Shown: piece after piece, positions 1-23,437 of the stretch
How positions within the stretch are numbered: the stretch's first letter is position 1
Layout of the letters: every line of letters begins with the position of its first letter
NCBI GenBank assembly: GCA_963841935.1
Contig: CAWJEP010000005.1
Location: forward strand, 5,577 to 69,576
DNA: 64,000 bases
Origin: an uncultured bacterium
GTDB lineage: Bacteria; Patescibacteriota; Minisyncoccia; Phycocordibacterales; UBA6065
Reading direction: 5' to 3'
Notes under the pieces: generated by a model
The model's database searches: none
What the model was told of the DNA's origin: nothing
The model's input: only the letters and a program-made list of their open reading frames with translations
Position numbers and translations under genes: made by a program

Positions 1-13
1 GTGCAGAAAATAG

Positions 14-688
14 ATGAAATTTTTGAGTAAAGCGTTGCGCTTCATAAAAGCAAGGTATGCTCCGCGGGGAGCGCGGCAATCTTTTTCCCAGGCGGGAGAA
101 GATATCGTTATGAGCGATATTTTGAAAAAACTAGGCGTAGGGAAGGACATTTCGTATGTCGACATCGGCGCTCACCATCCTGTCTTTGGAAACAACACAT
201 ATTTATTTTACAAAAGAGGCGGACGAGGAGTTCTCGTAGAGCCAAATACGGCTTTGTGCGATTTAATAGAAAAAAAGCGTCCGAAAGACACTTGCCTCAA
301 TGCTGGGGCTGGAGGAAAAGACGGCGAAGCGGATTTTTTCGTTTTCCCGCAAAGCACGCGGAGCACTTTTTCAAAAGGGCAAGCGCAGGAATGGGAAAAA
401 ACGTCCGGCCAGAAATTTAAAATAGAGAAACATAAGATTTTTTCTCTGGATACCATCATAGATAAATATTGCGTCGGCAAAATTCCCGATATTGTCTCGA
501 TAGATGCCGAAGGTTTGGACGCGGAGATCATTTCCGGTTTTAGTTTCGCAAAAAGACCGAAAGTTTTCTGCGTTGAAAACCAAGACAAAAATATTCTCGC
601 TATTATGGAAAGGAATGGCTATGAACTTAAAGCCCAAATATTCCAAAATGCCATTTTCGTCGACAAATCCGCTCGGAAAAATTCATAA
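14..688 (+). CDS. FkbM-family SAM-dependent methyltransferase
   Basis: Intact 224-aa ORF. N-terminal SQAGEDIV...YVDIGAHHP motif is typical of FkbM (Methyltransf_21). An in-frame stop lies immediately upstream of the ATG. Confidence 0.65.
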   Translation: MKFLSKALRFIKARYAPRGARQSFSQAGEDIVMSDILKKLGVGKDISYVDIGAHHPVFGNNTYLFYKRGGRGVLVEPNTALCDLIEKKRPKDTCLNAGAGGKDGEADFFVFPQSTRSTFSKGQAQEWEKTSGQKFKIEKHKIFSLDTIIDKYCVGKIPDIVSIDAEGLDAEIISGFSFAKRPKVFCVENQDKNILAIMERNGYELKAQIFQNAIFVDKSARKNS

Positions 689-692
689 AAAT

Positions 693-1469
693 ATGAAATT
701 AACGGCGATTCTACGCATAAAGGACCAGATGCTCACAATAGACGACTGTATGTCGAAGCTTTCGGCTATTGCAGACGAGATAATCATAGTCGACAACGGT
801 TCGACCGACGGCACGCTTGAAGCTTACAAAAAATATCCGAAAATCACGAAAGTTTTCAAGACTATCGGATTTGACGAGGGCAGGGACAAAATAATGGTTC
901 TTGATGCCGCGAAGAAGTCCGGCGCGGATTGGATTGTCTGGATAACGCCGACGAAATTTTCGAAAATCATTTCACGCGCGAAATCGCGGAGAAATATATG
1001 AGGTCGAAAATACAATCGCGTGGTTTTCAGAATGTGCAATTTCTGGTTGAGCAAAAAATATTGCAGATACGACGGGGAATATTATCTTTACACTCTCCAT
1101 CCGCAGAGAAGTATGTGGCGAAACTCGGAGAGCGCCTATTTTAAAAATCAGAAGATACACAATGGAGATATTATGGGTCTTACCGGCAAAACATATCTTT
1201 CTCCGTATCGTCTAAAACACTATGGATATGCCGACAAGAAAAAAATCGAGGAGAAAATCCAGACATATATGGCGGCCGACCCGAATAGTCCGAGAGATTA
1301 CCTGAAAAGCATAGACCCGAACATTCCGCGCAAGAAATATCCTTTCTTGGAATTCAAAAATCGCTCCGTTAATACCATATATATTATTTTCTACAAATAT
1401 TTTTGTAATTTGCTTTGGATTATCGAGCGCGCAAGATTGAAAGCGTTAAAATTGCTGAAAACAAAATGA
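693..1469 (+). CDS. Family-2 glycosyltransferase, interrupted by at least 2 apparent frameshifts
   Basis: MKLTAIL...IIIVDNGSTDGT (GT2 DxD region) reads in frame 0 to 1001, in frame 2 for 929-1144 (ADEIFENHF), then back in frame 0 for 1020-1469 (HYGYADKKKIEEK...). The three pieces are contiguous at the protein level. Confidence 0.55.
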
Positions 1470-2377
1470 ACGATACGCATCCTACCTGCCACATATGTAA
1501 AACTCCAAGCGATTTTCTCGTTAACAAAGACGGTTTTGACGAGTATATTTGTCCGTCGTGCAAATTGTCTTTCGTATATCCGGCGCCGAAAGCCGAGTGG
1601 CTGAAAGAAAAAGTTTATTCATACGAATCGGGATATCAGGGAAATAAGAAAAATAATCTATCGGAGATTCCGGAAGAGGCAAGAACGATAAAGATGATGG
1701 ATTTTCTTTCGAAGAAAAAGCCGAAAGGGAAACTTTTGGACGTCGGATGTTCGAGCGGGGGATTTATGTTCTCCGCTAGAAAGCGCGGCTTTTACTGCGA
1801 AGGCGTGGAGATAAACAAGCGCACCGCGGACATTGCCGTAGCGAATGGCTTTCGCGTCCACAACGGTTTCTTGGAGACAGCGCCTTTTGAAAAAGGAAGT
1901 TTCGACGTCGTCTATCTTGGCGATGTCATCGAGCATGTAAACGACCCGCGCTCTTTCGTCAAAACTTGCGCTAGTTTTTTGAAAAAAGACGGAATATTGG
2001 TCATCTCCACTCCAAACGTTGATTGCTGGTGGTCTTCAACAACTTTGGCGCTTTACAAGATGTTTAAAATTCCTTGGACGTCGCTCACTCCACCGCATCA
2101 TCTCTTTCAATTTAGTTTCGACAATCTAAACACTCTTCTTTCGGAACAGAATTTCCAAAATGTTTATTCCATATTCAATAGACCGCCGAGTCTCAAATAT
2201 GAACTCGGGTCGCTTCATCTTTTCAAAAGATTCAAAGAGAAAAAGACCGCCGGTAACCTTTTGTATATGTTATTCGCTTTTAGTATATACTCGTTAATAT
2301 ACGGCTTGAATGTCGTATTCGGGCCGTTTATGGGCAAAGATTTCAGAATGGCGGTGTTTTACGAAAGAAACAAATGA
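1466..2377 (+). CDS. Class I SAM-dependent methyltransferase with N-terminal Cys4 zinc-ribbon
   Basis: CHICK...CPSCK Cys4 zinc-ribbon, then LLDVGCSSGGF (motif I) and DVVYLGDVIEHV. ATG at 1466 inside the longer ORF 1415-2377. Confidence 0.6.
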   Translation: MNDTHPTCHICKTPSDFLVNKDGFDEYICPSCKLSFVYPAPKAEWLKEKVYSYESGYQGNKKNNLSEIPEEARTIKMMDFLSKKKPKGKLLDVGCSSGGFMFSARKRGFYCEGVEINKRTADIAVANGFRVHNGFLETAPFEKGSFDVVYLGDVIEHVNDPRSFVKTCASFLKKDGILVISTPNVDCWWSSTTLALYKMFKIPWTSLTPPHHLFQFSFDNLNTLLSEQNFQNVYSIFNRPPSLKYELGSLHLFKRFKEKKTAGNLLYMLFAFSIYSLIYGLNVVFGPFMGKDFRMAVFYERNK

Positions 2378-2982
2378 AACCATCATTTTTTTACATATTG
2401 AGGCAAAAACTGGCCGGGCGGAATTTTCTCTATGAATTTTATTTTAAAAATAAAAAGACGCTCGACGTCGGTTGCGGCGAAGGTAAATTTCTTTCTTACG
2501 ACAAGAATCTCATCGCTGGCATCGATACGAACAAATCCTGCGTCGAGCGTCTGAAAAATGAAGGATACCAAGCGACACTCGCGAGCGTCGAGAAAATTCC
2601 TTTCGCCGACAATTCTTTCGAAGCGGTACAGTCTCACAATGTAATAGAGCATTTGCCGGTGAACCTGGCTTACGCGATGATAAAGGAAGCCGCGCGCGTC
2701 CTTTCGCGCGGCGGAATCTTCGTTCTCTCGTCCGAAATGCCGACAAAAAATTTCTGGAATACGTTCGGCCACGTCAAGCCATATCCGCCATCAGCCATAA
2801 AAAAGCTTCTTCGCGTCGAAAGCAGGGAAGAGTTTCCACCGATTTCGGACATCGAAATAGAAAGCGTTTTTTATCTCGGGAATTACCATAAAAACAAGGT
2901 TCTTTACCTGCTTTCGGCGTTTTTCGGATATTACACGCCTTTCTGCCGCAGGGAATATTTTCTTGTGTTAAGGAAAAAATAA
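2374..2982 (+). CDS. Class I SAM-dependent methyltransferase (Methyltransf_11-like)
   Basis: LDVGCGEGKF motif I, FEAVQSHNVIEHL and RVLSRGGIFVLS. Start overlaps the stop of the previous methyltransferase gene. Confidence 0.6.
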   Translation: MKPSFFYILRQKLAGRNFLYEFYFKNKKTLDVGCGEGKFLSYDKNLIAGIDTNKSCVERLKNEGYQATLASVEKIPFADNSFEAVQSHNVIEHLPVNLAYAMIKEAARVLSRGGIFVLSSEMPTKNFWNTFGHVKPYPPSAIKKLLRVESREEFPPISDIEIESVFYLGNYHKNKVLYLLSAFFGYYTPFCRREYFLVLRKK

Positions 2983-3390
2983 TGAAAATCCGTTACGTCA
3001 CTTACGCTCGCATACCGACGAGAAAAGCCAACGGCCTTCAGATTTCAAAGACCTGCGAAGCTCTGGCGGCGCGTGGCGTAGGGGTCGAACTCGTCATACC
3101 GGGGAAAAACAGACATTCGAAAGACGCTCGAGGCGAAAATATTTTTGATTTTTATTCCCTAAAGAGAAATTTCCGAGTTACTCCCGTGTGGGTTCCGCCT
3201 TTTTTACCTCTGGGAAATTTCGGCATCTTTCTTCAAAATATTTATTTTTTCCTAGTCGCCGGGATCGGAAGCATTTTTGTTTCCAAAGACACGATAGTTT
3301 ATTCTCGCCAGCCATTGATGGTGATTCCGGCGCTTATTTTTGGTAGAAAAGCTGTTTTTGAATCGCACGAGGGCAGGTGGACGCCGGCAA
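2982..3390 (+). pseudogene. GT4-family glycosyltransferase, N-terminal domain fragment only
   Basis: YARIPTRKANGLQISKTCEAL...GRKAVFESHE matches the Glyco_trans_4 N-terminal domain. No GT1-type C-terminal domain follows. The rest of ORF 2982-3575 is antisense to the GT11 C-terminus. Confidence 0.4.
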
Positions 3391-3394
3391 TTCA

Positions 3395-4287
3395 TCAGAT
3401 TGCTTTCGTCGGTGCCGGAAGCGAACCATTTTTTGGTGCCATGATGATCTTTCCAGGATTCGGATCCAGCCATACTTGCCCACCATGCAAAGGTGCTGTT
3501 AGGAATTATGTAATGTCGGGAGAGGGACATGAGTTGAAGATAATTTCCGAGTTGTTTCCCCGCATGTTCATGTGAAATATAAAAAGTATGTTTGGTATGA
3601 AATCAGAGTCTTCTGCATTAGTCCATATCATCGGAAAATAAAAAGAACCTCGCATCAGCAAATAGATCTTTCTATAAACAGTAACACACTTTCATAACAT
3701 CTTTTTTACCTGATGAATACGAGTTTGGAGCTGATTTTAGGATCGGGTCAACATAGTCATAGTTTTTCTTACGTTTTATGCATACCGAATCACGCTCTCG
3801 TATCATTGTGGCAAATCGAGCAAAGTCGCCAGCTATTTTTTCTCAAAAAGTGAAATCGAGCTCGCAATCTCTTTTTCAACAGTTTTGATATTTTTCGCTT
3901 TGCCAAATGCCGGCGAAATAATGGTTGTCGCCGAGCGCCGCTATTTCTGGAACGAAAGAATATTCCGGTTCGATAATGTCTTTTCTTTTTTCGAGAGGGA
4001 AGAAAGATTCAGTACGTGCGTTGCACTTATCGTTTTGCTTTCGCGCGACAAACTCTGGTCCGCTCGGGTCGCCTATACCGAGATTTTTGAAATCTTTTTT
4101 CGTGGCGACTTTGTATTTTGTATTGAAAATATCGAGCGAGAAATATCTTTGCATTTCGTCCTTCTTTTGCCAGGAGACCCGAGAGGTCGAAAAGCAATTC
4201 AGTTTTGTTTTTGCTCGCGAGGGCGCGACCAAAAGCGTATTCAAACATCTGGTTTCCGAGACCGCCCGAGATGCGAACGATAATCAT
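3395..4287 (-). pseudogene. GT11 alpha-1,2-fucosyltransferase-like, multiply frameshifted
   Basis: Minus-strand pieces in order: RISGGLGNQMFEYA (4287-4027); YFAGIWQSEKY (3876-4244 frame); CIKRKK..YDYV and FFLFSDDMDW (3575-3876, by hand translation); IIPNSTFAWWAS (3252-3530). All four GT11 motifs are present but in different frames. Confidence 0.6.
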
Positions 4288-4710
4288 TTTATTTTAAATG
4301 TGTCGTCTACGAATAATGTGTTTATCGGCGTCATTGCCGGCGACGACGTATCCTTTGACGGTTGAAGGAAAGCGTCGATATGGCGAGACCCTTCATTTTA
4401 GTTTCTGATGTCCCGAAGCTCTGCGTTTCCACGCAGATTATTTTCGGTCGGCAGGACTTAGAAATCGACGCTCCTAAGTATTTCCAAATCGAGCCCCTCG
4501 ACGTCGAGCGAAAGCAAATCCACGTTTTTTATGTCGTTTTAAAGAAAAAATAATTAAAAACATTTCTATCGGCTATTTCTCTCCTTTCTTCCGATCATCT
4601 TATATCCTTTTTTCTCCGCGCCGAGATGCTTCTTTTTCCGAAAAAGTATTCAAGGCGAATCGCTTGTCGAACATAAAATAAGTAAGTATGCCTTTGTTTT
4701 GCGCCGACGC

Positions 4711-5066
4711 CTATTTCAAGCACGATATCTTTTGGTCTTTTGATTCTGATTTTTTCGCAAAAAGCGGGATTCGGTTCGACAAGATGCCTCTAGCGCCCGC
4801 TCTGTAAAAAAAATAGGTATCGCTGTAAATGACAGCATCGTTTGCGCCGATATCGATATAAAAGGTTTCGCTATGTCGAGTTTTTTCAAGAGGCGACGAA
4901 TAATAAGGTCTTCGCCGCATTGAGAATAACTTTTTTTGTATTTCGGTCCAATAATATATTTAACCGCATTGATTTTGTCCCTAAGTGTTTTCATTTGAAG
5001 AATTTCTTGTAGCATTTTTCTTTGTTGTCCAAGAGATATTGCGGCAGACCTTTCTCGTCTTTCCAT
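4711..5066 (-). pseudogene. FkbM-family methyltransferase fragment
   Basis: YSQCGEDLII (4716-5066) and YIDIGANDAV (4711-4920) are in two different frames. No C-terminal half is present. Confidence 0.45.
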
Positions 5067-5960
5067 AATTTTATGCCTTTTCCTCTGTAGTCTCGATTGT
5101 TTTCTATTTTTTTTTCAGATTTGGTAAGTTTCTTGTGGATTGTACCAAAAATGTGCGACTCGACGATTTTTCTCTTGGCCCCTTCAAAGCCGCCTTGAAG
5201 GCGAAGTGCCATCCGCCGTTTTTAAGAAACACGTATTTGAATTTCATTTTTCTATGATTGCGTACGTCGTTGAGTAAGGCGTCCTGAAGTTTTTGTATTT
5301 TGTCACGATTGTGCCGCCCCAGCCATACCAATCGATTTCGTTTGTGCGATTGTTGAGGTAATACATATAGCCCATTTGGCGCAGTTTAAAGACGCTGTCC
5401 TTTCTGTAGTCGATGACGAGATCCGGATTCCATATTTCGTCCAGGTCGAAAACATAGCATATGTCGTCATCAGAAGCCGACAAGAATTTTTTGATCGATT
5501 CTTTTATATAAAACTCTCTGACCGAATGGAAAATCTTTTCGAAGATGATCCCTTGTAAGTGCGCCGGTCACTCATTCTTTGTCGAGCACAGAAAAAGGCT
5601 CTTTTTCTCTCAAGTCTCTTTCATAATTCTCCTTCATTTTCCGACATGTCGCTCACGGCGTAACAATTATTTTATGCTGCCATTTTTTGAAGGTTCTTTA
5701 TTTTCTTTGTAATAAAGAAGGTCTGGGTTGTCCGGAAAAAGTCTTCTTCGCTTCGACAAGGACGAAAGAATCGACATATGGGTCTAAAATATTTAGACGC
5801 GTTCGAGAACGTCGAGTTCGTTGAAGAAAGGGAAGACATCATAAATCTTTATTGTCTTTCTATATTCGGCTTGATTCTCTCGGGGCGAAAGCCATGTTTT
5901 TTTCGCTTCTCGTTCGGTACTGATCGAAGAGTCTGCTGGGATCCTTTATTTTTTGCGGAA
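5060..5960 (-). pseudogene. GT17-like glycosyltransferase (bisecting-GlcNAc-transferase family), multiply frameshifted
   Basis: Hand translation of the minus strand gives KIYDVFPFFNELDVLE then RLNILDPYVDSFVLVEAKKTFSGQPRP in another frame. CYVFDLDE (5244-5483) and NGGWHFAFK (5104-5331) are in two more frames. Confidence 0.4.
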
Positions 5961-6038
5961 GAAAAAGCTATCCTCTTCTACGAATCTTTTGTGTCCTTTC
6001 CATTTTCCATATTTTATTTTTATTTCGAATCACTCATT

Positions 6039-6984
6039 TTAAAAGTCCTTGCATATATCATTCTCCTTGCCTATTCGATTCATCGAACATCTGAGTTGCG
6101 GACGATATTGAAGAACATTCCGGAATACATTTTTTATAGGTTTTTTTCCCATTATAGTCATTCAATTCTTTTAGACATTCGTCGTAGTTCTGGGGTTCCT
6201 TTCGGTCTTGATACGTGAGACCGGTCATAATATTGTAGCCGAGACTCCAGTAACCATCGGAAACGTTGTGTCGGGCCCAATATTTCGGCGCGATGGCGTA
6301 TATGAGCGTGTCGCTTGTCCACGCAGGAAACTGGGCAAAACTCGAATTCGAAATAATTAAATACCGGGCATTTTTGAGACGGAATAATCTTTGGCGATGC
6401 TAAAATGACGGACCTCGAAATCGGGGAAGAATTTCTTGGCGTTTTTTTCGTCTTCCGTAATGACTATGAATTTAAAATTGCGGATTTATTTTTCGCATAT
6501 TGTGCAATCGCGTCTCTCCAGTATTTCTATAGAGAAAGAAATCTTTTTCCTGCACATAGCCGCGTGCCGCGGAAATTGATAATGCATGTGTCGTCGTTTG
6601 AATAGTCGTAGCACTCATATTCCTTTTTGACCTCCAAGCCATTTTTTAATCTCGTCTTTGTCGACGGATTATGTATTTGCTCATCCTGCATAAGCCCACC
6701 GATTTTCCTATTGTCGGCGATATTCACCAGATCTTTATCGTATGTGCGGATATCCGCCCCGGTTCGTGGGTGGATGATTTTTCTTTTCTTCGTAGTGATT
6801 CTTAACCCCTTCTACTTTTTTTCCGAAATCGAGAGTCGAGGAAATCATCGACCTTTGGTATTTTTTCTGTATTGATAATGCCGAAATCTAAAGCCCTCGA
6901 TCGAGAGCGATGACAGCGCGTGGTGATATAGCACCAAAGCTGGTTGCCTAGTCCTTGACCGTCGTAGAATTCAGTTGTGATCAT
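6039..6984 (-). pseudogene. Second GT11-like glycosyltransferase, frameshifted
   Basis: The N-terminus MITTEFYDGQGLGNQLWCY starts at 6984. The hand-translated C-terminus IISNSSFAQFPAW...IAPKYWARHN lies near 6180-6330 and stops at 6039. Several frame changes and stops lie in between. Confidence 0.4.
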
Positions 6985-7778
6985 ACGGTTTTATCTTTAG
7001 GATCTTTTTAACTATTCGTTTCAAGAATCTCCAACACCTTCCTAATTTATAAATAGTCTTGAGCCGCCACCCGTTTTTCATTTGATATTTATCGACAATA
7101 TATCGCCACTCAATCTCCCTGCGATCTTCGGTTGCTGTGGTATTGGTTATTTGGTGTGGTCCAACCCTATTGACGACATTTATATCACCGAGGATTTTCG
7201 GCACGCCGAATTTTTCGAAACATCTTTTGTAGTAATCAGTACCCATCCACCAGATGAGCTTTTCATCAAAGAAAAGTGGGTTTTCGATTTTTTATTGTTA
7301 CGACCGAAGGAGAACTGATTGTGTTTTTAAGGAGGATTGTTTCATTGTTGTAAGATGGACGGACTGGACGATAAAAATCGGTCCCATTCTTTGTCGCTCA
7401 CACCCAGTCACAAGCCACATATCTTTCTTCAGATCGAAACTTTTGACGATCTCTTCCAGTGAAGTCTTTGCATACAAAAAATCATCCTGAAACAATATTT
7501 TAATAAGCGTGCCGGTCGGCTTTCGCCATCGCGTTGTTTATATTGGCCGCCGAATTACCGCGGTTTTCCGTGTTTTTGAAATAGGAAATATCAAGGACGT
7601 TCCTTGTACTCGTCGCATACGTTTTTGATCATGTCGTCGGTCTTTGAATGGTCGGAGACGACATGTCGAAATCTTTAAACGTCTGTATTTTAAGCATGTC
7701 GAAACTCTGTTTGAGAAATGCCGCGCCCATGCCGTGCATTTCGTAAGTAGGTATGCAAATGCTTATGAGTTTCTTCAT
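6971..7778 (-). pseudogene. Family-2 glycosyltransferase, frameshifted
   Basis: Hand translation from the ATG at 7778 gives MKKLISICIPTYEMHGMGAAFLKQSFDMLKIQTFKDFD..VVSDHSKTDD..NRGNSAANINNAMAKA. It continues into ORFs 7298-7495 and 6971-7246 in other frames. Confidence 0.5.
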
Positions 7779-7782
7779 TGCT

Positions 7783-8492
7783 TTATTTCTTTACGTAACA
7801 AATCATATCCTCTTCGGCGTCTTTGTGGAGTTTACAGACGTACTCGCCGCATATTTCTTTGAGCAATTTCGGGAGGTCGTATTTGTCGTCTTTATTGTGA
7901 TACGCGGACATCAAATTGTCGGTTTCCGATTTTTGAATCGTTTTTCGCGCGCCTTCGAGGATTTGCGCTTCGTATCCTTCGGTGTCTATTTTGATGAAAT
8001 CGACTCGAGATATTTTTTCTTTCTCGACGACGCGTCAATGGTCGTGACTTCCACTTGTTCCGTACCGTCGAAATATCTTTTATTTTTGAGCCGCAAGGGC
8101 GCTGTCCGTCATGGCATTCATTCCGGCGCGACCGGATACGGTGAGAATCTCTTGGTTTTTTCTTTTGCGCCGAGACCTTTGTTAAAAATTTTGATCTGGG
8201 GATAGTATTCGGAATTTTTTCGGAGAATTTCGTAAGTATTTTTTACCGGTTCGAAAGCGAATATTTTTCCTTGCGGAGAAAAGAGGGAAGCGAATATCGA
8301 AAAGATGCCGATGTTGGCTCCGGCGTCTATGGCAATTGAGTCTTTTGTAAGAAATCGTTTCGCTTTGTATTGGTCGGCAATCATTATTTCGTAAACCAAA
8401 GAAAAACGGTCGTCGCCGGAGATTTTTTCAAAAACGTCCGGATAATTTTTTTTCATAAACGAAGATATTTCTTTTTCCGATTCTTTTTTCAA
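7783..8492 (-). CDS. FkbM-family methyltransferase, interrupted by apparent frameshifts
   Basis: The N-terminus IDAGANIGIFSIFAS...FAFEP is in ORF 8118-8492. The C-terminus VDFIKIDTEGYEAQILEGARKT...MICYVKK* was translated by hand from the minus strand at 7783-8060, in another frame. Confidence 0.5.
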
Positions 8493-8664
8493 AAAATCCT
8501 CATAACGCGGTACGAGACCGACCGAGAAGGCGATATTTTTGCAGGAAGAACAAGTGAAACCGTTTCCCCAAAGGAAAACGCGCCCATTGAAAACGCCCTA
8601 AGCATCGCTTTTCGGTGTTGCATGAAATTTTTACTATTAACTGTTTTCGTGAACAACATATATG

Positions 8665-10046
8665 TCAGATATTTGTTTGAACTTTTTTATTTCCATCGAG
8701 AAAACTCAACTGAAGGGGAATGGCGATGAAATTGGTGATAATTTGCGCCCAGAGTATGCCCCAAACGGAAAAATAATACATAAGCACAATGAGAAGCGAT
8801 GCCTTGATCGCGGGAATGATGAAGCTTCCCATATAGAGCTGTTTCGTTTTTCTCTGCGACGTGAGACCTGCTTGGATAAGGCCCGGGACGATGGAGAAAA
8901 AAGAAAGGGAATAAACCTGAGTAAAAGATATTGATGCTCCGTATGCCGGGAAAAAAATATGAAAGATCCAAGGTGCAATCAAAGCATATAAGGCTGAACA
9001 GCAACCGAGAAACAAAAGCAGGAGAGGCATTCTCTTTACGATGAAGTTTTTTACCGATGCTTCAGATTTTTCCGAAAATTTTGGTAAAGCGATGTTTGAA
9101 ATGAAATTGAATACCACCCTGAAAATTTTCCGGTAAAAGAGTGGCGAAAGTATACACGGCAAGCGCCGCCGGACCGACGAAATGATAGACGAGCAAAGCG
9201 TCCAATTGTGAAGATATGGTTCCCGGAATAGACATCGCGGTCAGATGATTGCCGTAAGCAACCGTACCGGGTTCGAGTTTGTCGTTCGGCGGGATTTTTT
9301 TGACGATGATGTGATAAATGATGAGGTTGCCGAGAAATCCGAAGAAAAAATTGCCGAAGGCCACCCAGATGACATTGTGTGTGAAGTATAAAAACGCCAG
9401 AGGGCCGGCGTACGAAATAAAGCGTGTTGCAAAGACCAAAGTAGGTGCCGATGCGGAAAAATTTCTTGCCACCGATATACGCTGCCCACGTGTTGAGAGC
9501 ATTCGCAGTCGGCAAGAAAAGTGCGACCCAAATAAACGGAACGGAAATTGTCACGTTGCCGTGCAGGAAATACCAAATAGCGACGCAGAGAGCTATGGTC
9601 GTTGGAATGATGCCAAGGATGATTTGATATTTTGTCGTTCGGCGAAGTTCACCTTCGAAACCTCGCGAGACGGCGCGGTTGACGGCGGCATTCATTCCAG
9701 TCAGTGTCGTCGAGGTGATAAGACCTGTGATGGAAAGAATGTATTGATAGGTACCGAAAGCTTCTTTGGTAAAGAGTCGAGCAAAGAGAATCGACGTAAC
9801 GAAACCGAAAAGCGACACGAAAAAATAGTTGGTATTGCCCCAAAAAGCGCCACTGACGATGTACGCCATGTCTATTTTGAAAAAATGACCGAGTTTGGCG
9901 ATGACCGCCCGAACTCGGCTTACGAACCTGTTTTTGATTTCCCGCATGAAGGTATATTGTATATAAGCTTTGATTTTCGGCAAAGGTGGCGGCCTTTTTT
10001 GCAAAATAAATAGCTGTGCTATAGTGTCACTCATGACATCCGCCAC
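8665..10046 (-). CDS. Wzx-like polysaccharide flippase (MOP superfamily), interrupted by apparent frameshifts
   Basis: Three overlapping minus-strand ORFs (9051-10046, 9062-9502, 8665-9162) encode consecutive hydrophobic segments of a multi-TM protein typical of the oligosaccharide flippase family. Confidence 0.5.
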
Positions 10047-12464
10047 AGCTTTCTCGCTACTTCTTCTTGCCGTCGCGTGGGTTCTTTATGCCTTGGCCGC
10101 ACGCGGTTCCGCGAACAAGATTCTCGAGAGCGACTATTATTTTCGGAATCTTCGTCACGCCTTTCATTCCCATCATTGTCACGCCGTCATTGTTTTTTCC
10201 TTTCATCACCGGTAAGAATTTTCTTTTCAGAGCGTCGTCGAAATCATAACCGCCGCTTGGATAATTCTCTCTATTCGCTCTCCGGAATATCGTCCGAAAA
10301 AATCCGCAGTCTTTTGGGCCTTTTCGGCGCTCGCCGCGACGATGCTCGTGTCCACGTTTGTCGGCGCCGACCCGTTTCGAAGTTTTTGGTCCAATTTCGA
10401 GAGAATGGAAGGTTACGTGACTTTGATACATCTTTTCGCTTTCTTTCTCGTCGCCGCGAGCGTGCTTTTCCGCAGCAACGTCTGGAATCTTTTGCTCAAG
10501 ACGACTCTCGGCGTTTCCGTTTACATTTCTCTTTACGGCGTGCTTCAGCTTCTCGGATTTCTTACCATTAACCAAAGCGGCGTGCGTCTCGACGGAACTC
10601 TCGGCAACGCGGCTTATCTCGCGATATATTGCATATTTGCCATTTTCTTCGCCGGCATCCTCGCCGACTCGCGAAAAAGGTCTAAAGATTTCCCGTGAAG
10701 CCATGTGGTGGTCGGTGGGAGTCATCGGCTTTGCTCTTTTACTTTTTCTTTTCGGTTTGACCCAGACGACGATTTCGTCTCCCGTTACCGCGGCGCTTGT
10801 CGTCTCTCTTATAACGCTTTTGGGTATGTCTGCCGTGGTTTTGGCGAAAAAATATTCCGTTTCTTGGATTTACGCCGCCGTGGCTGTTTTGAATTTCGTC
10901 GTTTTGTATTACACGGCGACTCGCGGAGCGCTCCTCGGTTTTGCCGCCGGCGAATAATCCTCATGGCTCTCATCGTTCTCATTGCCAGAAAGGGAAGCAA
11001 GCTGATACAGAGGAGCGCTCTTTGGCTCATCGTTGTCGTGGTCATTGGCGCCGGCGGTTTCTTTGCTTTGAAAAACAGTTCGTTCGTAGAAAAAAGTCCG
11101 GTGCTTTCGCGTTTCGCTTCGATAAATCTTTCGGATTCGGAAACGACCGCGCGATTCTATATTTGGAATATGGCGTGGCAAGGATTTCTGGAGAAGCCGG
11201 TTTTTGGTTGGGGTCAGGAAAATTTCAATTTGGTTTTCAACAAATTCTACGCTCCTCAGATTTATTCCCAAGAGCAATGGTTTGACCGCACTCACGACAT
11301 ATTTTTTGACTGGCTTGTCACCGGAGGCATCGTCGGGTTCGTGGCCTATTTCTTTCTTTTCGGCGCGACACTTTTGCTCATCTGGAAAAACGCGGAAATT
11401 TCTTTCACGGAAAAAACCCTGTTCACCGGACTTTTCGCCGCCTATCTCGATCAATAATATTTTCGTTTTCGACAACATCACGAGTTTATTGCTTTACGTT
11501 ACTGTCTTGTCGTATGTGGCCGGCGTCGGCGGTAAGCCGTTTAAAAAATGGGGAAACGAGGAGTCGGCCGTTTCCGAAAAGACCATGAGGCGCGTGGTCG
11601 CGCCCATCGTCATCGTCGTCTTTCGCCGGCATTATATATTTGGTCAATTGGCCGGGATACATAACGTCTCGGGACGTCATCGGAGCTTTGTCCGCGATAA
11701 GCGAGAACAACGCTACGTCGTCCATCACGTATTTTGAATCGGCGGCGGGAGAAAACGCTCTCGGCCGCGAAGAGGTCACGGAACAAATCGTGGAAAACGC
11801 GCCGGCGATTATCAATTCCGGTAGCCGATTTGCAGACAAAGGAAGCGTTTGCCACTTTCGCCCAAAGTATCGTCGCGCGCCAATTATCCCAAACTCCAAA
11901 CGACGCCAGAGAGTGGCTTTTCGCCGGCAATTTCTACGCCGCCGTCGGTGAAAACAATTTGGCGGAAACCGCTTACCAAAACGCCGTGACGCTTTCCCCG
12001 AACAAACAGACGATTCTTTTCAGCCTCGGTTCGCAATATATACAGGATAAAAAATACGACCAAGCTCTTCGCCGTTTTCAAACAAGCTTACTATCTTGAC
12101 CAAAGCGACACCGAAGCGCTTGGAATGGTACGTCGCCGCCGCGATTTACGACGGTCAAGACGCTTTGGTGCCTCGGATCCTCGCCTCGACCACTCCAGAC
12201 GTGGCGCTTTCCGATACGATTGCCGGCGCCTATCTAAATACCAGCAATTGGCCGTCGAGCTCATCAAATTATTCCAAGACCGCATTCAAGTATTTGCCGG
12301 ACAACGTTCAGAACCATCTTTCGCTCGTGGCGGCGTACATGAAGATGAGTGAGACTAATGCCGCCGTCGCGGAAATCCAAAATATCATGAAGCTTTACCC
12401 GAGCTACGCCACGGTCGGCGCACAAGCTATAAAGGACATAGAATCGGGTAAACCTCTTCCATAA
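10033..12464 (+). CDS. O-antigen-ligase-like (Wzy_C) membrane protein with C-terminal TPR repeats, many apparent frameshifts
   Basis: TM-rich N-terminus from the ATG at 10033. RFYIWNMAWQGFLEKPVFGWGQENF is a Wzy_C signature. TPR-like repeats lie in 11734-12464. The reading frame changes at least 7 times. Confidence 0.45.
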
Positions 12465-12468
12465 GATT

Positions 12469-13551
12469 ATGAAAGAGAAAGTTTCTTTGTCGGAGATGAC
12501 GACTTTGAAAGTCGGGGGCTTTGCGAAGTATTTTTTTCGCGCCAAGACGGAAAAAGAAATTAAAGAAGCGGTAGAATTTGCTGCTCTCGGAAAAACTTCC
12601 GATTTTGGTTCTTGGGCGGCGGTTCAAATATTCTCGTAAGTGATGGAGGTTTTTCCGGCGCGGTAATAAAAATAAAAATGAAGGCGTGTCGTACGACCCG
12701 CCTGACGGCGAGGCAGGGGAAAAAGCGGCGCGGACGGACACGTCCGCGCCGCTGCCGGTGTTTCGTGGGACGCATTTGTTGCCGAAACCGTTTCTCGCGG
12801 ATTTTGGGGATTTGAAAATCTTTCCGGGATTCCCGGAACGGTCGGCGCGACACCAATTCAAAATATCGGCGCCTATGGCGCGGAAGCCAAAGACACAATC
12901 AAATCCGTCCGTGCTCTCGATATGAGAACAGGCGAAGAAAAAATTTTTGCCAACGCCGAGTGCCGGTTCGAATATCGAGATAGTTTTTTCAAAAGCGCCG
13001 AAGGCAAGAATTTTATCGTTCTCGAAGTCGTTTTTCGAGCTTTCGAAAGAACCAAAACCGAATATTTCGTACAAAGATTTACAAGATTTTTCGCAAAGAA
13101 AGATGGGCGGTTTTCGAGAGCGTAAGTCGGAGCGAAGCGCACAAACGAGAAAATGCCGCCTTCACTGGAAGAAATCCGCAAAGCCGTTCTCGAAATCCGT
13201 TCGAAAAAATTTCCCGACTTTTCGAAAGTCGGAACGGCAGGTTCGTTTTTCAAAAATCCAATTATTTCAGTCTCTAGGTTTGAAAAATTGAAGGCAAAAT
13301 ATCCGGAATTGCCGTTTTTCGCCGCGAAAGACGGCGTGAAAATTCCTCTCGCTTTTATTCTCGACAAAATCTGCGGGTTAAAAGGTTTCAAGAAGGGAAA
13401 TGTGGAGCTTTTCCAAAACCAGCCGCTCGTTTTGATGAATACTGGCGGCGCGACGGCAAAAGAAATTTCCGAATTCTCCGCGGAAATAAAAAAAGTCGTG
13501 AAAGAAAAAACTGATATTGGTATAGAGGAAGAAGTTGTATGCATATCATAG
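12469..13551 (+). CDS. murB: UDP-N-acetylenolpyruvoylglucosamine reductase MurB, interrupted by apparent frameshifts
   Basis: N-terminus MKEKVSLSEMTTLKVGGFAKYFF. GGGSNILVSDGGF (frame of 12612). RTGEEKIFANAECRFEYRDSFFK (frame of 12922). C-terminal GSFFKNP...CGLKG...LVLMNTGGAT (13153-13551). Confidence 0.65.
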
Positions 13552-14565
13552 CCGCAGTTTTGTTTTCGATTTCCGCGTGGATTCCATACGCCACAGAGTC
13601 GAAAGGTATTCCGGACATTTTGCCGCGCGTTTCGGAGTTCACCAACATAAGTCCATTCGTTTACGACATCACAGGCACTTCGACTATCACCGACGAGGGC
13701 AGAGTCTCAAAAGGAAATTGGACTGCCGTTTTTTCCGCCGCTCGAGCCGATAGCGTGAAAATAATTCCGACAATCGTCTGGGGAAACAAAGACCAAATTC
13801 ACGCGATGCTTTCCGCTACTTCCACTCGCGCGGCGCACGACACGGCAATATGTCCATCGTCAATCAAAACAATTTTGACGGCATAGACATAGATTATGAA
13901 GGCAAATATCTCTCCGACCATTTTCTTTTTTCGCAATTTTTGTCTGAGCTTTCTTCCGCGCTCCACCAAAACGGAAAAATTTTGATCTGCACGGTCGAAG
14001 CCAAAGATTCGGAATATCAAAATATCGATGCTTCGTGCGACCAAGTGCGAGTGATGGCATACGATAAATATTTTTACGATTTCGGCTCGGGACATTTTTC
14101 GACAACCACGCCCCTCTCCATTTCCGTGACGAACGCGCCGCTTTCTTTCGACAAGTCCGTAGTTGCCGACGCCGAGAAATATATTCCGGCGAATAAAATA
14201 ATTCTCGGCATTCCGACTTATGGATATGATTTTTCATACTCAATCAAAAGTGGAATAAGAAATGTAAATTGGTATGCCGCGTATTCATACACTGACGCCG
14301 TGGCTAAAGCGAAAATATTAGGGTGCTACGATTCACACGACACCACAAGACGAAAAATATTTCGTTTACACGACGCATGGCGCAAATCATTTCGTCGTTT
14401 ATTCAGACGCAGCAAACTCTCTCCGACAGGGTCGCGCTCGCGAAGTCTCTCAATCTCGGCGGCGTCGCCATTTTCAAAATCGACGGTAAAGAAGACCCGA
14501 ATATTTGGAATAAGATTTCGGCGGCTGATAATAATGGAAAGAATCGGTCTTTTTTGTTAAGATGA
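13539..14565 (+). CDS. Glycoside hydrolase family 18 (chitinase / YaaH-like) protein, interrupted by apparent frameshifts
   Basis: FDGIDIDYE (GH18 DxxDxDxE catalytic motif) and [10 protein letters not shown] in frame 13850-14560. The N-terminal part is in frame 13539-13886 and the C-terminal [17 protein letters not shown] in frame 14323-14565. Confidence 0.5.
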
Positions 14566-14574
14566 TGAGTTCTT

Positions 14575-19707: not shown

Positions 19708-19718
19708 GTTGAGTATAT

Positions 19719-20644
19719 ATGGCATTCATTGACGAAATATCGTTTCACGTAAAGGCGGGCGCCGGAGGCTCTGGTGTCGAGCGTTGGCTTCACGAAAAAG
19801 GAAAAGAGTACATGGGACCGGCCGGCGGCAACGGCGGCCGCGGCGGAGACGTCTACGTGGAAGCCGTGCGCGATATCGGATTCTCACCATATATAAGAAC
19901 GTGAAAGTTTTGGAAGCCGGCAATGGCGGCAACGGCGGAAAGAAAAGTATGGATGGCAAGACGGCGAAGATTTGGTCATAAAACTTCCGATTGGTTCAGT
20001 CGTTGCACAATCTCGATACTGAGCAGAGATTTGAGCTTTTGAAAGAAGGCGAAAAAGTTTTGATACTCAAAGGCGGCCGCTACGGTCTCGGCAACGAACA
20101 TTTCAAAGCGTCGACCAATGTCCGTCCGAAACAGACAACCGACGGCCGCGTCGGCGAAGAAGCGGATTTCCACGTGGAAATCAAACTCATCGTCGATGCC
20201 GGTTTCGCCGGTTTCCCGAACGCCGGAAAATCGTCGCTTCTAAACGCTTTGACGAACGCAAAGGCAAAAGTCGCGAGCTATCAGTTCACGACGCTAGAGC
20301 CGAACCTCGGCGAAATGCATAAATTTATTTTGGCGGACATTCCGGGACTCATCGAAGGCGCGTCGGAGGGCAAAGGTCTCGGCGACAAATTCCTCCGTCA
20401 CATCAAGCGCACGAAAATGATTATTCATTGTATCTCGCTCGAAAACGAAGACATCAAAAGCGCTTACAAAACAATCAGAAACGAACTCGAGGCTTATTCG
20501 GAAGAGCTGACGACGAAAAAAGAAATAATCGTTCTCACCAAGACCGACCTCGTTGACGAAAAAACTTTGGCGAAGAAAATAAAGGAAGCGAAGAAATTGA
20601 ATCCCGACGTTTTCTCCGTTTCGATTGTCAACGACGAACAATAA
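19719..20644 (+). CDS. obg: GTPase Obg/CgtA, interrupted by apparent frameshifts in the Gly-rich N-domain
   Basis: MAFIDEISFHVKAGAGGSG, then GNGGRGGDVY, then the G domain GFPNAGKSSLLNALTNAK...DIPGLIEGAS...LTKTD. Confidence 0.75.
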
Positions 20645-22424: not shown

Positions 22425-23437
22425 ATGAACTCAGAAAATAATATGAAAAATAAAGGTTCGGCGCTCGCGTGGATAATTATTATAATCGCTATTATCGTAA
22501 TCGCCGGCGGAATTTATTTTTTTGCAGAGAGACCTAAACCTCCAGTCATAACCTCAATATCTCAGTCTTTTGTAAACGATCGTCATCATTCGGCTCATAT
22601 CACGATGTCGACGTACATGTCACTGATTTCAACCCTTATGACAATGACGTGTATTTGGTCAGCACTTCTACTGGAGCGCGAATCGCTCTTCTTACCATTG
22701 ATACACCGACTGGTGAGGCTACAAGCAGTAGTGAATTTCCCGTAATGATACTAGATATGGTAGCTGGGACGTATGCCCTTGTAGTTGAGGACAATCAATC
22801 TGGTTTAGCAAGTCAGCCGTATCCTTTTACCATTTTGCCGTCTGACGTTACTCCTTTGGGACAACAAGCAATTGTTTATCTTTCGGGCACATCTTTTAAT
22901 GTTGGAGACAAGATCACTATGGGATGGTCAGCTAGCTTTGGTGCTAAAGCGCCTATTCTTACTTTGATGAATGCTGAGGGCCAAGTCGGTAATCCTATTA
23001 ACACCGGTGCACCGGGCGATTCGTACGTCTGGACTATTCCTTCGGGAATCCAACCTGGTACGTATTATATTGAAATTAGCAATGGTCTGAATGAACCGGC
23101 GTCAAGTACGAATTTTCACTATTCTTAATACTCAATCCTCAAATTCAACTTCAACCGCGGTTACTTCTGCAATTGAAAACGCGACTATCGACCAGAACTC
23201 ACTTACAGCAAGTCCTGGATTTCCGACTATTACGGGAACTGCTGAAAATGTAAACAAACTTCTAGTCAACGTAGTTGGTGCCGACAGTACAGAACCGTTG
23301 GTGGTAAACGGGCGCTGGTCAAGTTTGTTGATTGACGATTTAAAGACAGGTAACTTATACAATAAATGTTTATGCCATAGAAAGTGCCGGCAATGGCCGC
23401 GGCAATCTTCTCACGACAGGAATTTTGATAGTAAAAT
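22425..23437 (+). CDS. Hypothetical N-terminally anchored/secreted protein (paralog B), interrupted by apparent frameshifts
   Basis: MNSENNMKNKGSALAWIIIIIAIIVIAGGIYFF is paralogous to the 21383 N-terminus. It continues through frames 22649-23128 and 23091-23400 and ends ...TYTINVYAIESAGNG...LIVK* just before the gatB ATG. Confidence 0.4.

What the first reader, a model, noticed from the sequence alone, without database searches (positions are those of the whole stretch)
14..12464. Glycan locus combining two GT11 fucosyltransferase-like genes, a GT17-like gene and four FkbM methyltransferases, almost entirely frameshifted
The 12.5-kb block encodes:
- FkbM-type methyltransferases at 14-688, 4711-5066 (fragment) and 7783-8492;
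- class-I methyltransferases at 1466-2377 and 2374-2982;
- GT2 genes at 693-1469 and 6971-7778;
- a GT4 N-terminal fragment at 2982-3390;
- two GT11 genes at 3395-4287 and 6039-6984;
- a GT17-like gene at 5060-5960;
- a Wzx-like flippase at 8665-10046;
- a Wzy_C+TPR ligase at 10033-12464.

GT11 and GT17 are families best known from eukaryotic glycan fucosylation and bisecting GlcNAc addition. Together with FkbM O-methyltransferases they point to a heavily decorated, methylated and fucosylated surface glycan. Only the first FkbM gene and the two class-I methyltransferases are intact. Every other gene changes frame one to seven times. The GT4 gene is cut to its N-terminal domain exactly where the convergent GT11 gene ends, which looks like a rearrangement scar.
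Basis: partly seen in the sequence, partly recalled or inferred. Interest (0 to 1): 0.6.

Follow-up and report, generated by a model that had tools for sequence, protein, structure and literature searches.

The report
Glycan locus broken by assembly errors
This is an ordinary, complete surface-sugar gene cluster of a tiny Patescibacteria (CPR) bacterium; it most likely looks shattered only because this part of the assembly is full of one-base insertion and deletion errors, which also break essential genes such as SecA elsewhere in the window.

Summary
The gene content is real. Homolog-guided repair confirms three FkbM methyltransferases (not four), two class-I methyltransferases, two GT2, one bona fide GT11, one divergent GT11-like, one GT17-like, Wzx, Wzy_C+TPR and a GT4 N-terminal remnant. 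The frame breaks are also real in the sequence, and more numerous than reported: 54 in 4.4 kb.

They are very unlikely to be biological decay:
- The same lesions break SecA, LepA, a class-I aaRS, TsaD, RNR, GatB, Obg and MurB elsewhere in the window.
- Every broken glycan gene is full length and 57-84% identical to intact orthologs once frames are corrected.
- The lesions are 1-2-base indels, with insertions outnumbering deletions 39:15, and they do not sit at homopolymers.
- An orthologous island (L036, 85% nt identity) has GT2b, FkbM2 and GT11a intact and carries its own frame breaks in other genes.

GT2 - GT11-like - GT17-like - GT11 is a conserved, intact module in other Patescibacteria contigs.

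The junction at ~3395-3402 truncates both GT4 and GT11a. It coincides with a jump in error density, so a misjoin or patch boundary is at least as likely as a real scar.

Verdict: an ordinary glycan cluster in a low-quality assembly stretch. Interest is low.

The parts
14..688 (+). FkbM-type methyltransferase 1, uninterrupted ORF (224 aa)
   Evidence: PF05050 at E 1.8e-14, profile positions 1-173 of 173. No frame shift in the Viterbi scan.
693..1469 (+). GT2 glycosyltransferase a, about 2 frame breaks (near 938 and 1067)
   Evidence: PF00535 at E 4e-8 and PF13704 after repair. Frame pieces.
1415..2377 (+). Class-I SAM methyltransferase 1 (Methyltransf_23/11), intact
   Evidence: PF13489 at E 1.3e-22. 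The Logan contig L001 covers 1485-3102 at 99.4% identity with no gaps.
2374..2982 (+). Class-I SAM methyltransferase 2 (Methyltransf_11/25), intact
   Evidence: PF08241 at E 4.7e-15. An identical protein is on Logan contig ERR11630400_201646. The closest species-representative genomes are Saccharibacteria and Magasanikbacteria MAGs at 57-61%.
2982..3393 (+). GT4 N-terminal remnant. The ORF runs on to 3575, antisense to GT11a.
   Evidence: Aligns to residues 5-139 of the 380-aa GT4 of L033 at 35% identity. No Pfam hit. The C-terminal domain is found nowhere else in the window.
3393..3402 (.). Junction that truncates both convergent genes and marks a jump in indel density
   Evidence: Homology to L036 stops at 3402. 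GT11a lacks the last 8 codons and the stop (PENWIRIQ*) seen in L036. There are no frame shifts in 1067-3390, against about 20 indels per kb to the right.
3393..4287 (-). GT11a, alpha-1,2-fucosyltransferase family: 14 frame breaks and 4 apparent in-frame stops
   Evidence: 84% identity over 292 aa to intact P0128. The motif reads NVRKTDY once 5 extra bases are removed, against the family consensus NVRRxDY.
4287..4994 (-). FkbM-type methyltransferase 2: a complete gene with 10 frame breaks
   Evidence: 69% identity over all 231 residues of the intact L036 ortholog. PF05050 at E 3.8e-21.
4994..5961 (-). GT17-like glycosyltransferase: about 12 frame breaks
   Evidence: 57% identity over 317 aa to the intact 331-aa L033 ortholog.
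6061..6984 (-). GT11b, a divergent GT11-like glycosyltransferase: 13 frame breaks, no stops
   Evidence: 78% identity over 280 aa to P0008. Its family has more than 3000 homologs. hhalign against the GT11a family gives 99.6% probability, E 8.8e-24. 28 of 34 members hit PF01531.
6989..7778 (-). GT2 glycosyltransferase b: 5 frame breaks
   Evidence: 67% identity over 261 aa to the intact L036 ortholog and 57% to P0001. PF00535 at E 7.8e-12.
7786..8546 (-). FkbM-type methyltransferase 3: at least 3 frame breaks
   Evidence: PF05050 at E 1.1e-19, plus a sub-threshold RfbT hit. There are 8 one-base gaps against L036.
8668..10046 (-). Wzx-type flippase (Polysacc_synt): about 2-3 frame breaks
   Evidence: PF01943 at 52.4 bits and PF13440 after repair. 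tblastn hits fall in two frames. Collinear with L036 up to 9981.
10040..12464 (+). Wzy_C (O-antigen ligase/polymerase-like) membrane protein with a C-terminal TPR domain: about 9-11 frame breaks
   Evidence: PF04932 at 76.8 bits plus TPR families after repair. Frame pieces. A 723-aa intact counterpart in L033 lies next to the same module.

Best explanation
Region 14-12464 is a complete Wzx/Wzy-type surface-glycan biosynthesis cluster of a Patescibacteria (CPR) bacterium.

**Inferred pathway, from family knowledge**
- Sugars are added to a lipid carrier on the cytoplasmic side by two GT2 enzymes, a GT11 fucosyltransferase-family enzyme, a divergent GT11-like enzyme and a GT17-like enzyme.
- Three FkbM-type and two class-I SAM methyltransferases O-methylate the glycan.
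- Wzx flips the unit across the membrane.
- The Wzy_C+TPR protein polymerises it or ligates it to an acceptor.

**The frame breaks are not biology**
- They are 1-2-base indel errors in a poorly polished stretch of what appears to be a long-read metagenome assembly.
- Their density varies along the contig. It peaks in the low-GC, strain-variable island at 3.4-8.6 kb.

**What is shown and what is inferred**
- Shown: the genes, their full length, their conservation, the indel spectrum, and the same lesions in essential genes.
- Inferred: the sequencing or polishing cause, and the biochemical roles.
For: 1. **Essential genes carry the same lesions.**
   - SecA is covered end to end by PDB SecA in alternating frames, with at least 6 frame changes and highly conserved blocks.
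   - Deleting one 'a' near 15027 restores the conserved SecA motif (LGLSVGVI; E. coli SecA reads FLGL up to the break).
   - LepA, a class-I aaRS, TsaD, RNR large subunit, GatB, Obg, MurB and a P-type ATPase are also split across frames.
2. **The island genes are intact apart from small indels.**
   - There are 54 frame breaks in 3393-7778, yet every gene spans its ortholog essentially end to end.
   - Identities are GT11a 84%, GT11b 78%, FkbM2 69%, GT2b 67% and GT17 57%.
   - Only 5 apparent stops occur and there are no large deletions.
3. **Indel spectrum.**
   - Against ortholog L036 there are 116 gaps in 6.6 kb: 84 of 1 nt, 18 of 2 nt and only 8 of 3 nt.
   - Extra bases outnumber missing bases 39:15 in protein-guided alignments.
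   - Inserted bases are of any kind and are mostly not homopolymer extensions.
4. **An independent ortholog is intact where the window is broken.**
   - L036 has GT2b, FkbM2 and GT11a uninterrupted.
   - It carries its own breaks in GT11b (5) and GT17 (4); whether any coincide with the window's was not resolved.
5. **Purifying selection.** Mismatches to L036 fall 126/89/215 on codon positions 1/2/3 (p = 2e-13).
6. **Patchiness.** There are no breaks in 47.5-64 kb, including GyrA, FtsZ and FtsA, nor in 1067-3390, where Logan contig L001 matches without gaps.
7. **Conserved intact synteny.** GT2 - GT11-like - GT17 - GT11, with convergent methyltransferase/GT4 genes and Wzy_C-TPR plus Polysacc_synt nearby, occurs in L032-L035.
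8. **Literature.** Interrupted ORFs are a recognised indicator of indel errors that escape polishing in long-read MAGs (PMC9426551; PMC12007338 and PMC8103633).
Against: - No reads could be mapped, so no single indel is directly shown to be an error.
- Indel density in the island (about 12-23 per kb) is several-fold higher than in SecA (about 3 per kb). Some real lesions could therefore hide in the noise.
- GT11a has 4 apparent in-frame stops, an R-to-K change in its NVRRxDY motif, and an almost flat codon-position distribution of mismatches (20/14/25).
- The junction at 3395-3402 removes parts of two genes. Simple indel error does not explain that.
- No near-identical independent assembly of the island exists in the databases searched.
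Confidence: 0.85

Rival explanations
1. Real, locus-specific pseudogenisation. The strain has inactivated its glycan island by accumulating many frameshift mutations; this is the first reader's reading.
For: - The break density is highest in the island: 54 breaks in 4.4 kb.
- GT11a has apparent in-frame stops and a weak codon-position bias.
- Both GT4 and GT11a are truncated at the junction.
- The island has low GC, as a dispensable accessory region would.
Against: - Essential genes show the same lesions.
- All genes remain full length and 57-84% identical to intact orthologs, with no large deletions.
- Insertions dominate 39:15. From established knowledge, bacterial pseudogene decay is biased towards deletions.
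- Between 10 and 14 independent 1-nt mutations per 0.7-0.9 kb gene, alongside a clear third-position bias in GT2b and FkbM2, is not a plausible mutational history.
Confidence: 0.08
2. The junction at ~3395-3402 is a genuine deletion or recombination scar at the edge of an exchangeable glycan island. This would hold independently of the indel errors.
For: - Homology to L036 ends exactly there, and L036 continues with different genes: a 122-aa ORF and an FkbM on the same strand.
- Glycan islands are known recombination hot spots (PMC9426551).
- The GT4 C-terminal part is absent from the whole window.
Against: - The break coincides with an abrupt change from 0 frame shifts in 2.3 kb to about 20 indels per kb. 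That is what a join between differently supported sequence would give.
- The only independent contig of this species, L001, ends at 3102, about 300 bp before the junction. Short-read assembly therefore also breaks near here.
- Both genes lose coding sequence, which is unusual for a tolerated natural boundary.
Confidence: 0.4
3. Phase variation or programmed frameshifting of glycan genes, with slipped-strand switching as in Helicobacter fut genes or Vibrio cholerae rfbT.
For: Glycosyltransferase and methyltransferase genes are classic phase-variable loci (established knowledge). FkbM3 has a weak RfbT-like hit.
Against: - Break sites are not enriched for homopolymers or repeats: longest run of 5 or more at 23% of sites against 17-29% at random. 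Inserted bases are mostly non-homopolymeric.
- Between 5 and 14 breaks per gene cannot be switched back.
- Housekeeping genes are affected too.
Confidence: 0.01

Closest known systems
Wzx/Wzy-dependent O-antigen and capsule gene clusters that carry GT11 alpha-1,2-fucosyltransferases (E. coli O126 WbgL, O128 WbsJ, Helicobacter pylori FutC)
   Same: - Clustered glycosyltransferases sit with a Wzx flippase and a Wzy_C-domain protein.
- GT11a matches PF01531 over its full length and keeps the GGLGNQMF, NVR(R/K)xDY, FSDD..W and NSTFAWW motifs.
   Different: - The host is a Patescibacteria bacterium, which presumably has no outer membrane or LPS (inference), so the acceptor is unknown.
- The Wzy_C protein carries a long TPR tail.
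- No initiating phosphoglycosyltransferase or GDP-fucose synthesis genes lie inside the window part of the locus.
- There is an unusually heavy complement of methyltransferases: three FkbM and two class-I.
Intact Patescibacteria glycan loci L033 (GCA_034680565.1), L034/L035 (Logan SRR32540953 and SRR32540955), L032 (ENA ERZ28573539) and L036 (ENA ERZ25039529)
   Same: - They share the core order GT2 - GT11-like - GT17-like - GT11.
- L033 and L034 also have convergent methyltransferase/GT4 genes.
- L033 has Wzy_C-TPR and Polysacc_synt alongside.
- L036 is collinear with the window from Wzx to GT11a at 85.5% nt identity.
   Different: - Those loci have uninterrupted ORFs, except L036, which has its own breaks.
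- L033 and L034 use Wzm/Wzt ABC transporters.
- In L032 and L034 the GT17-like domain is fused to DUF3431 or DUF5672.
- The window has extra FkbM genes between the glycosyltransferases.
GT17 (MGAT3, bisecting beta-1,4-GlcNAc transferase; Pfam PF04724)
   Same: A significant Pfam match above the gathering score: 67 bits for the window gene and 75-80 bits for intact orthologs.
   Different: - In the window gene and L033 the match covers only about profile positions 69-148 of 348 (up to 67-253 in L032).
- The proteins are short (about 330 aa), bacterial and cytoplasmic.
- Donor, acceptor and linkage are unknown, so functional equivalence to MGAT3 is not supported.
Interrupted ORFs caused by indel errors in long-read (meta)genome assemblies (the IDEEL-type artefact)
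   Same: - Many 1-2-nt indels split otherwise conserved genes, including essential ones.
- The density is patchy.
- Sister contigs from what appears to be the same metagenome assembly, with 'contig_N' names, show the same problem (PMC9426551).
   Different: - The errors here are insertion-biased and not tied to homopolymers. This differs from the usual homopolymer-deletion profile of nanopore consensus (own knowledge).
- The sequencing platform and polishing history are unknown.
FkbM-family and RfbT-type sugar O-methyltransferases
   Same: Three genes match PF05050 well above the cut-off. FkbM3 has a weak hit to V. cholerae RfbT (25.3 bits, below the 27.9 cut-off).
   Different: Substrates are unknown. 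The RfbT hit is sub-threshold, so no membership in that family is claimed.

Membership tests
GT11 (PF01531, alpha-1,2-fucosyltransferase family): GT11a, 3393-4287 | Full-length profile match above Pfam's gathering score | tested here: met
The raw single frame gave E 5.7e-8.
GT11 (PF01531, alpha-1,2-fucosyltransferase family): GT11a, 3393-4287 | Conserved motifs: N-terminal GGLGNQMFQY, the HxRRGD-type motif (NVRRxDY in this subfamily), FSDD..W and NSTFxWW | tested here: inconclusive
   - GGLGNQMF, FLFSDD and NSTFAWW are present.
- The Arg motif reads NVRKTDY after 5 extra bases indicated by L036 are removed. The invariant R and D are kept, and the nearly invariant second R is K.
- The W of SDD..W is a TAA codon in a garbled stretch.
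GT11 (PF01531, alpha-1,2-fucosyltransferase family): GT11a, 3393-4287 | Transfers L-fucose from GDP-fucose in an alpha-1,2 linkage | not testable with these tools
   Needs an enzyme assay. No GDP-fucose synthesis genes were seen inside the locus.
GT11: GT11b, 6061-6984 | Pfam PF01531 match for the protein itself | tested here: not met
   No Pfam family at E below 0.01 for either repaired version.
GT11: GT11b, 6061-6984 | Remote homology of its family to bona fide GT11, with shared motifs | tested here: met
   - hhalign of the GT11b family against the GT11a family: probability 99.6%, E 8.8e-24, 247 aligned columns.
- 28 of 34 family members hit PF01531, best E 9.2e-10.
- The motifs GQGLGNQLW, INFRGGEY, TDD and NSSFAWF align with the GT11 motifs.
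GT17 (PF04724): gene at 4994-5961 | Profile match above the gathering score | tested here: met
   67 bits against a 26 cut-off after repair. Intact orthologs score 75-80 bits.
GT17 (PF04724): gene at 4994-5961 | Match over the whole catalytic domain, and bisecting GlcNAc-transferase activity | tested here: inconclusive
   The best stretch covers only profile positions 69-146 of 348 (up to 67-253 in L032). The activity cannot be tested here.
FkbM methyltransferases (PF05050) | Profile match above the gathering score for each claimed copy | tested here: met
   FkbM1 scores 54.7 bits, FkbM2 76.4 bits and FkbM3 71.7 bits, against a cut-off of 22.7. Only three copies were found, not four.
Wzx/Wzy-dependent glycan assembly system | A Wzx-type flippase (Polysacc_synt) and a Wzy_C-domain polymerase/ligase in the cluster | tested here: met
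Wzx/Wzy-dependent glycan assembly system | An initiating polyprenyl-phosphate glycosyl-phosphate transferase in the cluster | tested here: not met
   No Bac_transf hit among the frames scanned (both-direction coverage incomplete: + strand 1-3600, - strand 3300-8700, repaired genes to 12464). It is present next to the module in L032 and L033. The locus starts at the window edge, so it may lie upstream.
Decaying or pseudogenised locus | Lesions specific to the locus while housekeeping genes are intact | tested here: not met
   SecA, LepA, aaRS-I, TsaD, RNR-L, GatB, Obg, MurB and a P-type ATPase are also frame-broken.
Decaying or pseudogenised locus | Signs of relaxed selection and erosion: large deletions, many nonsense codons, loss of codon-position bias | tested here: not met
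   - All genes are full length, with 5 apparent stops against 54 frame breaks.
- Mismatches by codon position are 126/89/215, p = 2e-13.
- GT11a alone is equivocal at 20/14/25.
Decaying or pseudogenised locus | Lesions confirmed by reads or by an independent assembly of the same strain | not testable with these tools
   There is no read access. No near-identical island was found in the protein or DNA collections. L001 covers only 1485-3102.
Phase-variable glycan genes | Frame breaks located in homopolymer or simple-sequence tracts | tested here: not met
   There is no enrichment of runs of 5 or more at break sites. Inserted bases are mostly non-homopolymeric.

The most novel reading that the evidence does not exclude
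Setting the assembly errors aside, the locus belongs to a conserved Patescibacteria-wide module: GT2 - divergent GT11-like - GT17-like - GT11, often with FkbM or class-I methyltransferases and sometimes fused to DUF5672 or DUF3431. This module may build a methylated, deoxyhexose-containing surface or protein-linked glycan using two glycosyltransferase types (the GT17-like and the GT11-like) for which I know of no characterised bacterial member. If so, it would be a lineage-typical cell-surface pathway of these episymbiotic bacteria that has not yet been described.
Probability: 0.4. Interest if true: 0.45.

Novelty: new member of a known kind. Interest (0 to 1): 0.15.

Why it matters
Mainly as a caution. 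Taken at face value, this window would be annotated with a dozen glycan 'pseudogenes' and read as a decaying or rearranged surface-glycan island. The evidence says the genes are complete and that the breaks reflect local assembly quality. The same breaks affect SecA, LepA, tRNA synthetase and other essential genes. Pseudogene counts, metabolic reconstructions and selection analyses on this contig would be misleading until it is re-polished.

The biological residue is modest but real. The repaired locus adds a member to a widespread, uncharacterised Patescibacteria glycan module that combines GT11, GT11-like and GT17-like enzymes with many methyltransferases. That module could matter for how these episymbionts decorate their surface.

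Tried and rejected
- **Homopolymer slippage.** I first suspected nanopore-type errors. Break sites are not enriched for runs, and homopolymer density is the same in the intact 1-3 kb as in the broken 3.4-8.6 kb.
- **Alternative genetic code.** The in-frame stops in GT11a are a mix of TGA, TAA and TAG. Long ORFs elsewhere read normally under table 11.
- **Codon-usage Viterbi frame repair.** It is useful for a map, but it undercounts breaks (5 against 13 in GT11b) and misplaced frames in GT11a. It was replaced by a protein-guided frameshift-aware aligner (onwards).
- **Chimeric six-gene query to the search for homologous proteins.** It returned only 7 long multidomain proteins, so one search was largely wasted.
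- **GTDB species-representative loci found with MT2.** These share only the methyltransferase and show no synteny.
- **Exact look-ups of enolase and FkbM1.** Nothing was found.
- **Two DNA scans of JGI metagenome contigs**, one with an island 37-mer and one with a SecA pattern that tolerated the suspect base. Both found nothing.
- **Distant references for Wzx, Wzy and FkbM2** (L033, L034, and the window paralog 29639-31939). These gave alignments too weak to count breaks.
- **Literature searches** for GT11 or GT17 in Patescibacteria found nothing relevant.

Full report
**Observation**

The first 12.5 kb of the window has lower GC (41-45% up to 10 kb) than the rest (about 49%). It contains almost no long ORFs between 3.4 and 8.6 kb.

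After frame repair the assignments hold:

| Gene | Pfam family | Score or E-value |
|---|---|---|
| FkbM1, FkbM2, FkbM3 | PF05050 | 55-76 bits |
| GT2a, GT2b | PF00535 | E 4e-8 and 7.8e-12 |
| GT11a | PF01531 | 71.9 bits, full-length profile |
| GT17-like | PF04724 | 67 bits |
| Wzx | PF01943 | 52.4 bits |
| Wzy_C + TPR | PF04932 | 76.8 bits |

GT11b has no direct Pfam hit. Its family has more than 3000 homologs, many of them named as Parcubacteria, Paceibacteria or Patescibacteria. That family is a clear remote relative of GT11:
- hhalign probability is 99.6%, E 8.8e-24.
- 28 of 34 members hit PF01531.

The GT4 remnant aligns only to residues 5-139 of a 380-aa GT4.

- There are three FkbM genes, not four.
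- The '4711-5066 fragment' is a complete gene.
- Frame changes number 5-14 per gene, not 1-7.

**Are the frame breaks specific to the locus?**

They are not. Pfam on ORF pieces elsewhere shows consecutive parts of single essential proteins lying in different frames:
- SecA (14569-17002, four pieces)
- LepA
- a class-I aminoacyl-tRNA synthetase (three pieces)
- TsaD
- the large subunit of ribonucleotide reductase, GatB, Obg, MurB, a GH18 protein and a P-type ATPase

A three-frame SecA translation aligned to PDB SecA (6s0k_h) covers chain residues 4-833 in the frame order 0, 1, 0, 1, 2, 0, 1. The blocks are strongly conserved. At about 15027, one extra 'a' destroys the conserved SecA motif (LGLSVGVI; E. 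coli SecA reads FLGL up to the break).

A per-gene frame-shift scan gives this picture:

| Region | Frame shifts |
|---|---|
| 47.5-64 kb (GyrA, FtsZ, FtsA, S1 and others) | none |
| 8.6-46 kb | 0-5 per kb, patchy |
| Island 3.4-8.6 kb | maximum |

A small-genome bacterium cannot have lost SecA, LepA, a tRNA synthetase and TsaD. The breaks are therefore a property of the sequence record.

**What the island lesions look like**

I wrote a protein-guided aligner that tolerates frameshifts and aligned each island gene to the nearest intact homolog.

| Gene | Reference | Identity | Frame breaks | Apparent stops |
|---|---|---|---|---|
| GT11a | P0128 | 84% of 292 aa | 14 | 4 |
| FkbM2 | L036 ortholog | 69% of 231 aa | 10 | 0 |
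| GT17-like | L033 ortholog | 57% of 317 aa | 12 | 1 |
| GT11b | P0008 | 78% of 280 aa | 13 | 0 |
| GT2b | L036 ortholog | 67% of 261 aa | 5 | 0 |

- That is 54 breaks in 4.4 kb.
- Every gene spans its ortholog essentially end to end. Even segments of 2-6 residues between breaks match.
- Extra bases outnumber missing bases 39 to 15.
- Break sites are not enriched for homopolymers.

**An orthologous island**

P0128 lies on L036 (ENA ERZ25039529, contig_142171).
- L036 is collinear with window 9981-3402 at 85.5% nt identity: Wzx, FkbM3, GT2b, GT11b, GT17, FkbM2, GT11a.
- The alignment has 116 gaps. Of these, 84 are 1 nt, 18 are 2 nt and only 8 are 3 nt. Intact coding orthologs would show mostly triplet indels.
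- The inserted bases are of any kind and usually are not homopolymer extensions.
- L036 has GT2b, FkbM2 and GT11a uninterrupted. It has its own breaks in GT11b (5) and GT17 (4).
- Mismatches between the two fall 126/89/215 on codon positions 1/2/3 (p = 2e-13). GT11a alone is nearly flat at 20/14/25, at 93% nt identity.
- Removing five extra bases indicated by L036 turns the garbled 'IKRKKNYDY' of GT11a into NVRKTDY. The family consensus is NVRRxDY.
- A second sister contig from the same ENA analysis, L037, matches window 53-57 kb at 83-88% identity. Its S1 gene is split in three.
- The source contig is 268 kb, held in NCBI and ENA. Its proteins are singletons at 90% clustering.

**Interpretation of the breaks**

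The most economical reading is indel error that escaped polishing in what appears to be a long-read metagenome assembly. It is worst in the low-GC, strain-variable glycan island. The supporting points are:
- the same lesion type in essential genes;
- full-length, conserved, selection-shaped coding sequence under the breaks;
- an insertion-biased 1-2-nt spectrum, where established knowledge says bacterial pseudogenes erode with a deletion bias;
- a sister contig that is intact in three of the genes broken here and carries its own breaks in others.

Interrupted ORFs are a standard indicator of such errors. Surface-glycan genes are the hypervariable part of such genomes (PMC9426551; see also PMC12007338 and PMC8103633).

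I could not map reads. A minority of real lesions in the island cannot be excluded, GT11a being the best candidate.

**The junction**

- At about 3395-3402, homology to L036 stops.
- GT11a lacks the last 8 codons and the stop of its ortholog and reads on antisense into GT4.
- GT4 lacks its C-terminal two thirds, which are nowhere else in the window.
- To the left, 1067-3390 has no frame break. Logan contig L001 (ERR11630400) matches 1485-3102 at 99.4% without gaps and ends at 3102.
- To the right there are about 20 indels per kb.

A real island-boundary deletion is possible. However, the exact coincidence with the change in error density fits a join between differently supported sequence at least as well.

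**What the locus is and does**

The order GT2 - GT11-like - GT17-like - GT11 recurs with intact ORFs in several contigs:
- L033 (GCA_034680565.1): a 723-aa Wzy_C-TPR protein and a Polysacc_synt flippase lie next to it, with convergent methyltransferase and GT4 genes.
- L034/L035: a GT2-FkbM fusion and a DUF5672-GT17 fusion.
- L032: a DUF3431-GT17 fusion.
- P0062 fuses GT17 and GT11 domains.

The closest relatives of MT2 among species-representative genomes are Saccharibacteria and Magasanikbacteria MAGs.

From family knowledge, the locus most likely builds a lipid-linked oligosaccharide. Two GT2, a GT11 fucosyltransferase-type, a GT11-like and a GT17-like enzyme would add the sugars. Five SAM methyltransferases would O-methylate it. 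Wzx would flip it, and the Wzy_C-TPR protein would polymerise it or transfer it to an acceptor. Donors, linkages and the acceptor are inferred, not shown. No initiating transferase or GDP-fucose genes lie in the window part of the locus.

**Verdict**

The locus is a real and complete glycan cluster, a new member of a known kind. The 'almost entirely frameshifted' state is, with about 85% confidence, an assembly artefact and not decay. Interest is low. The residual interest lies in the uncharacterised, conserved GT11-like/GT17-like module of Patescibacteria.

Noticed in passing
window 12500-46000 (SecA 14575-17088, LepA 31965-33750, aaRS-I 37438-39624, TsaD 41290-42415, RNR-L 25568-28100, GatB 23091-24439, Obg 19713-20641, MurB 12500-13548, P-ATPase 42659-44900): Essential and housekeeping genes are split across reading frames by single-base indels. 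The contig needs re-polishing before any gene-content or pseudogene analysis.
   Followed up: yes
window 47500-64000: About 16.5 kb shows no detectable frame break (PLD, protease, TrxR, FtsZ, FtsA, aaRS-II, signal peptidase, S1, GyrA, SBP). Error density is strongly patchy along the contig, and the cause is unknown (coverage, polishing or a strain mixture).
   Followed up: partly
window 13123-13125: MurB's FAD-binding part (12706-13122) and its MurB_C part (13126-13548) are in the same frame but separated by a single stop codon. This is either a substitution-type lesion or two nearby compensating indels.
   Followed up: partly
L036 (ENA ERZ25039529 contig_142171) and L037 (contig_92152): Two contigs from one ENA analysis are 83-88% nt identical to the window: the island, and the S1-to-aaRS region at 53-57 kb. 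A sister species therefore seems to co-occur with the window's organism, and mixed read recruitment could contribute to the muddled consensus. Both contigs have their own broken genes.
   Followed up: partly
L036 6511-7263 versus window 3402 and below: Downstream of GT11a the sister contig carries a 122-aa ORF (weakly FkbM-like) and another FkbM gene on the same strand, instead of the window's convergent GT4/MT2/MT1 block. The island edge therefore differs between the two lineages.
   Followed up: partly
L032 9804-11435, L034 7452-9116, P0062: In other Patescibacteria the GT17-like domain is fused to DUF3431 or DUF5672, and in P0062 to a GT11 domain. This suggests these domains of unknown function act in the same glycan pathway.
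   Followed up: no
window 29639-31942: A second large, intact membrane protein with a C-terminal TPR array (767 aa). It resembles the Wzy_C-TPR protein of the locus only weakly (24% identity in a frameshift-aware alignment). Pfam detects only the TPR part.
   Followed up: partly
window 13560-14557: A frame-broken GH18 (chitinase-like) gene lies between MurB and SecA. Only profile positions 99-244 of 317 are in the main ORF.
   Followed up: no
window 29207-29543; 34333-36250; 46715-47591: There is a bacterial class-A RNase P RNA and six tRNA genes (Gly-CCC, Arg-CCT, Phe-GAA, Ser-CGA, Glu-TTC, Val-GAC). All score normally despite the error-prone surroundings.
   Followed up: no
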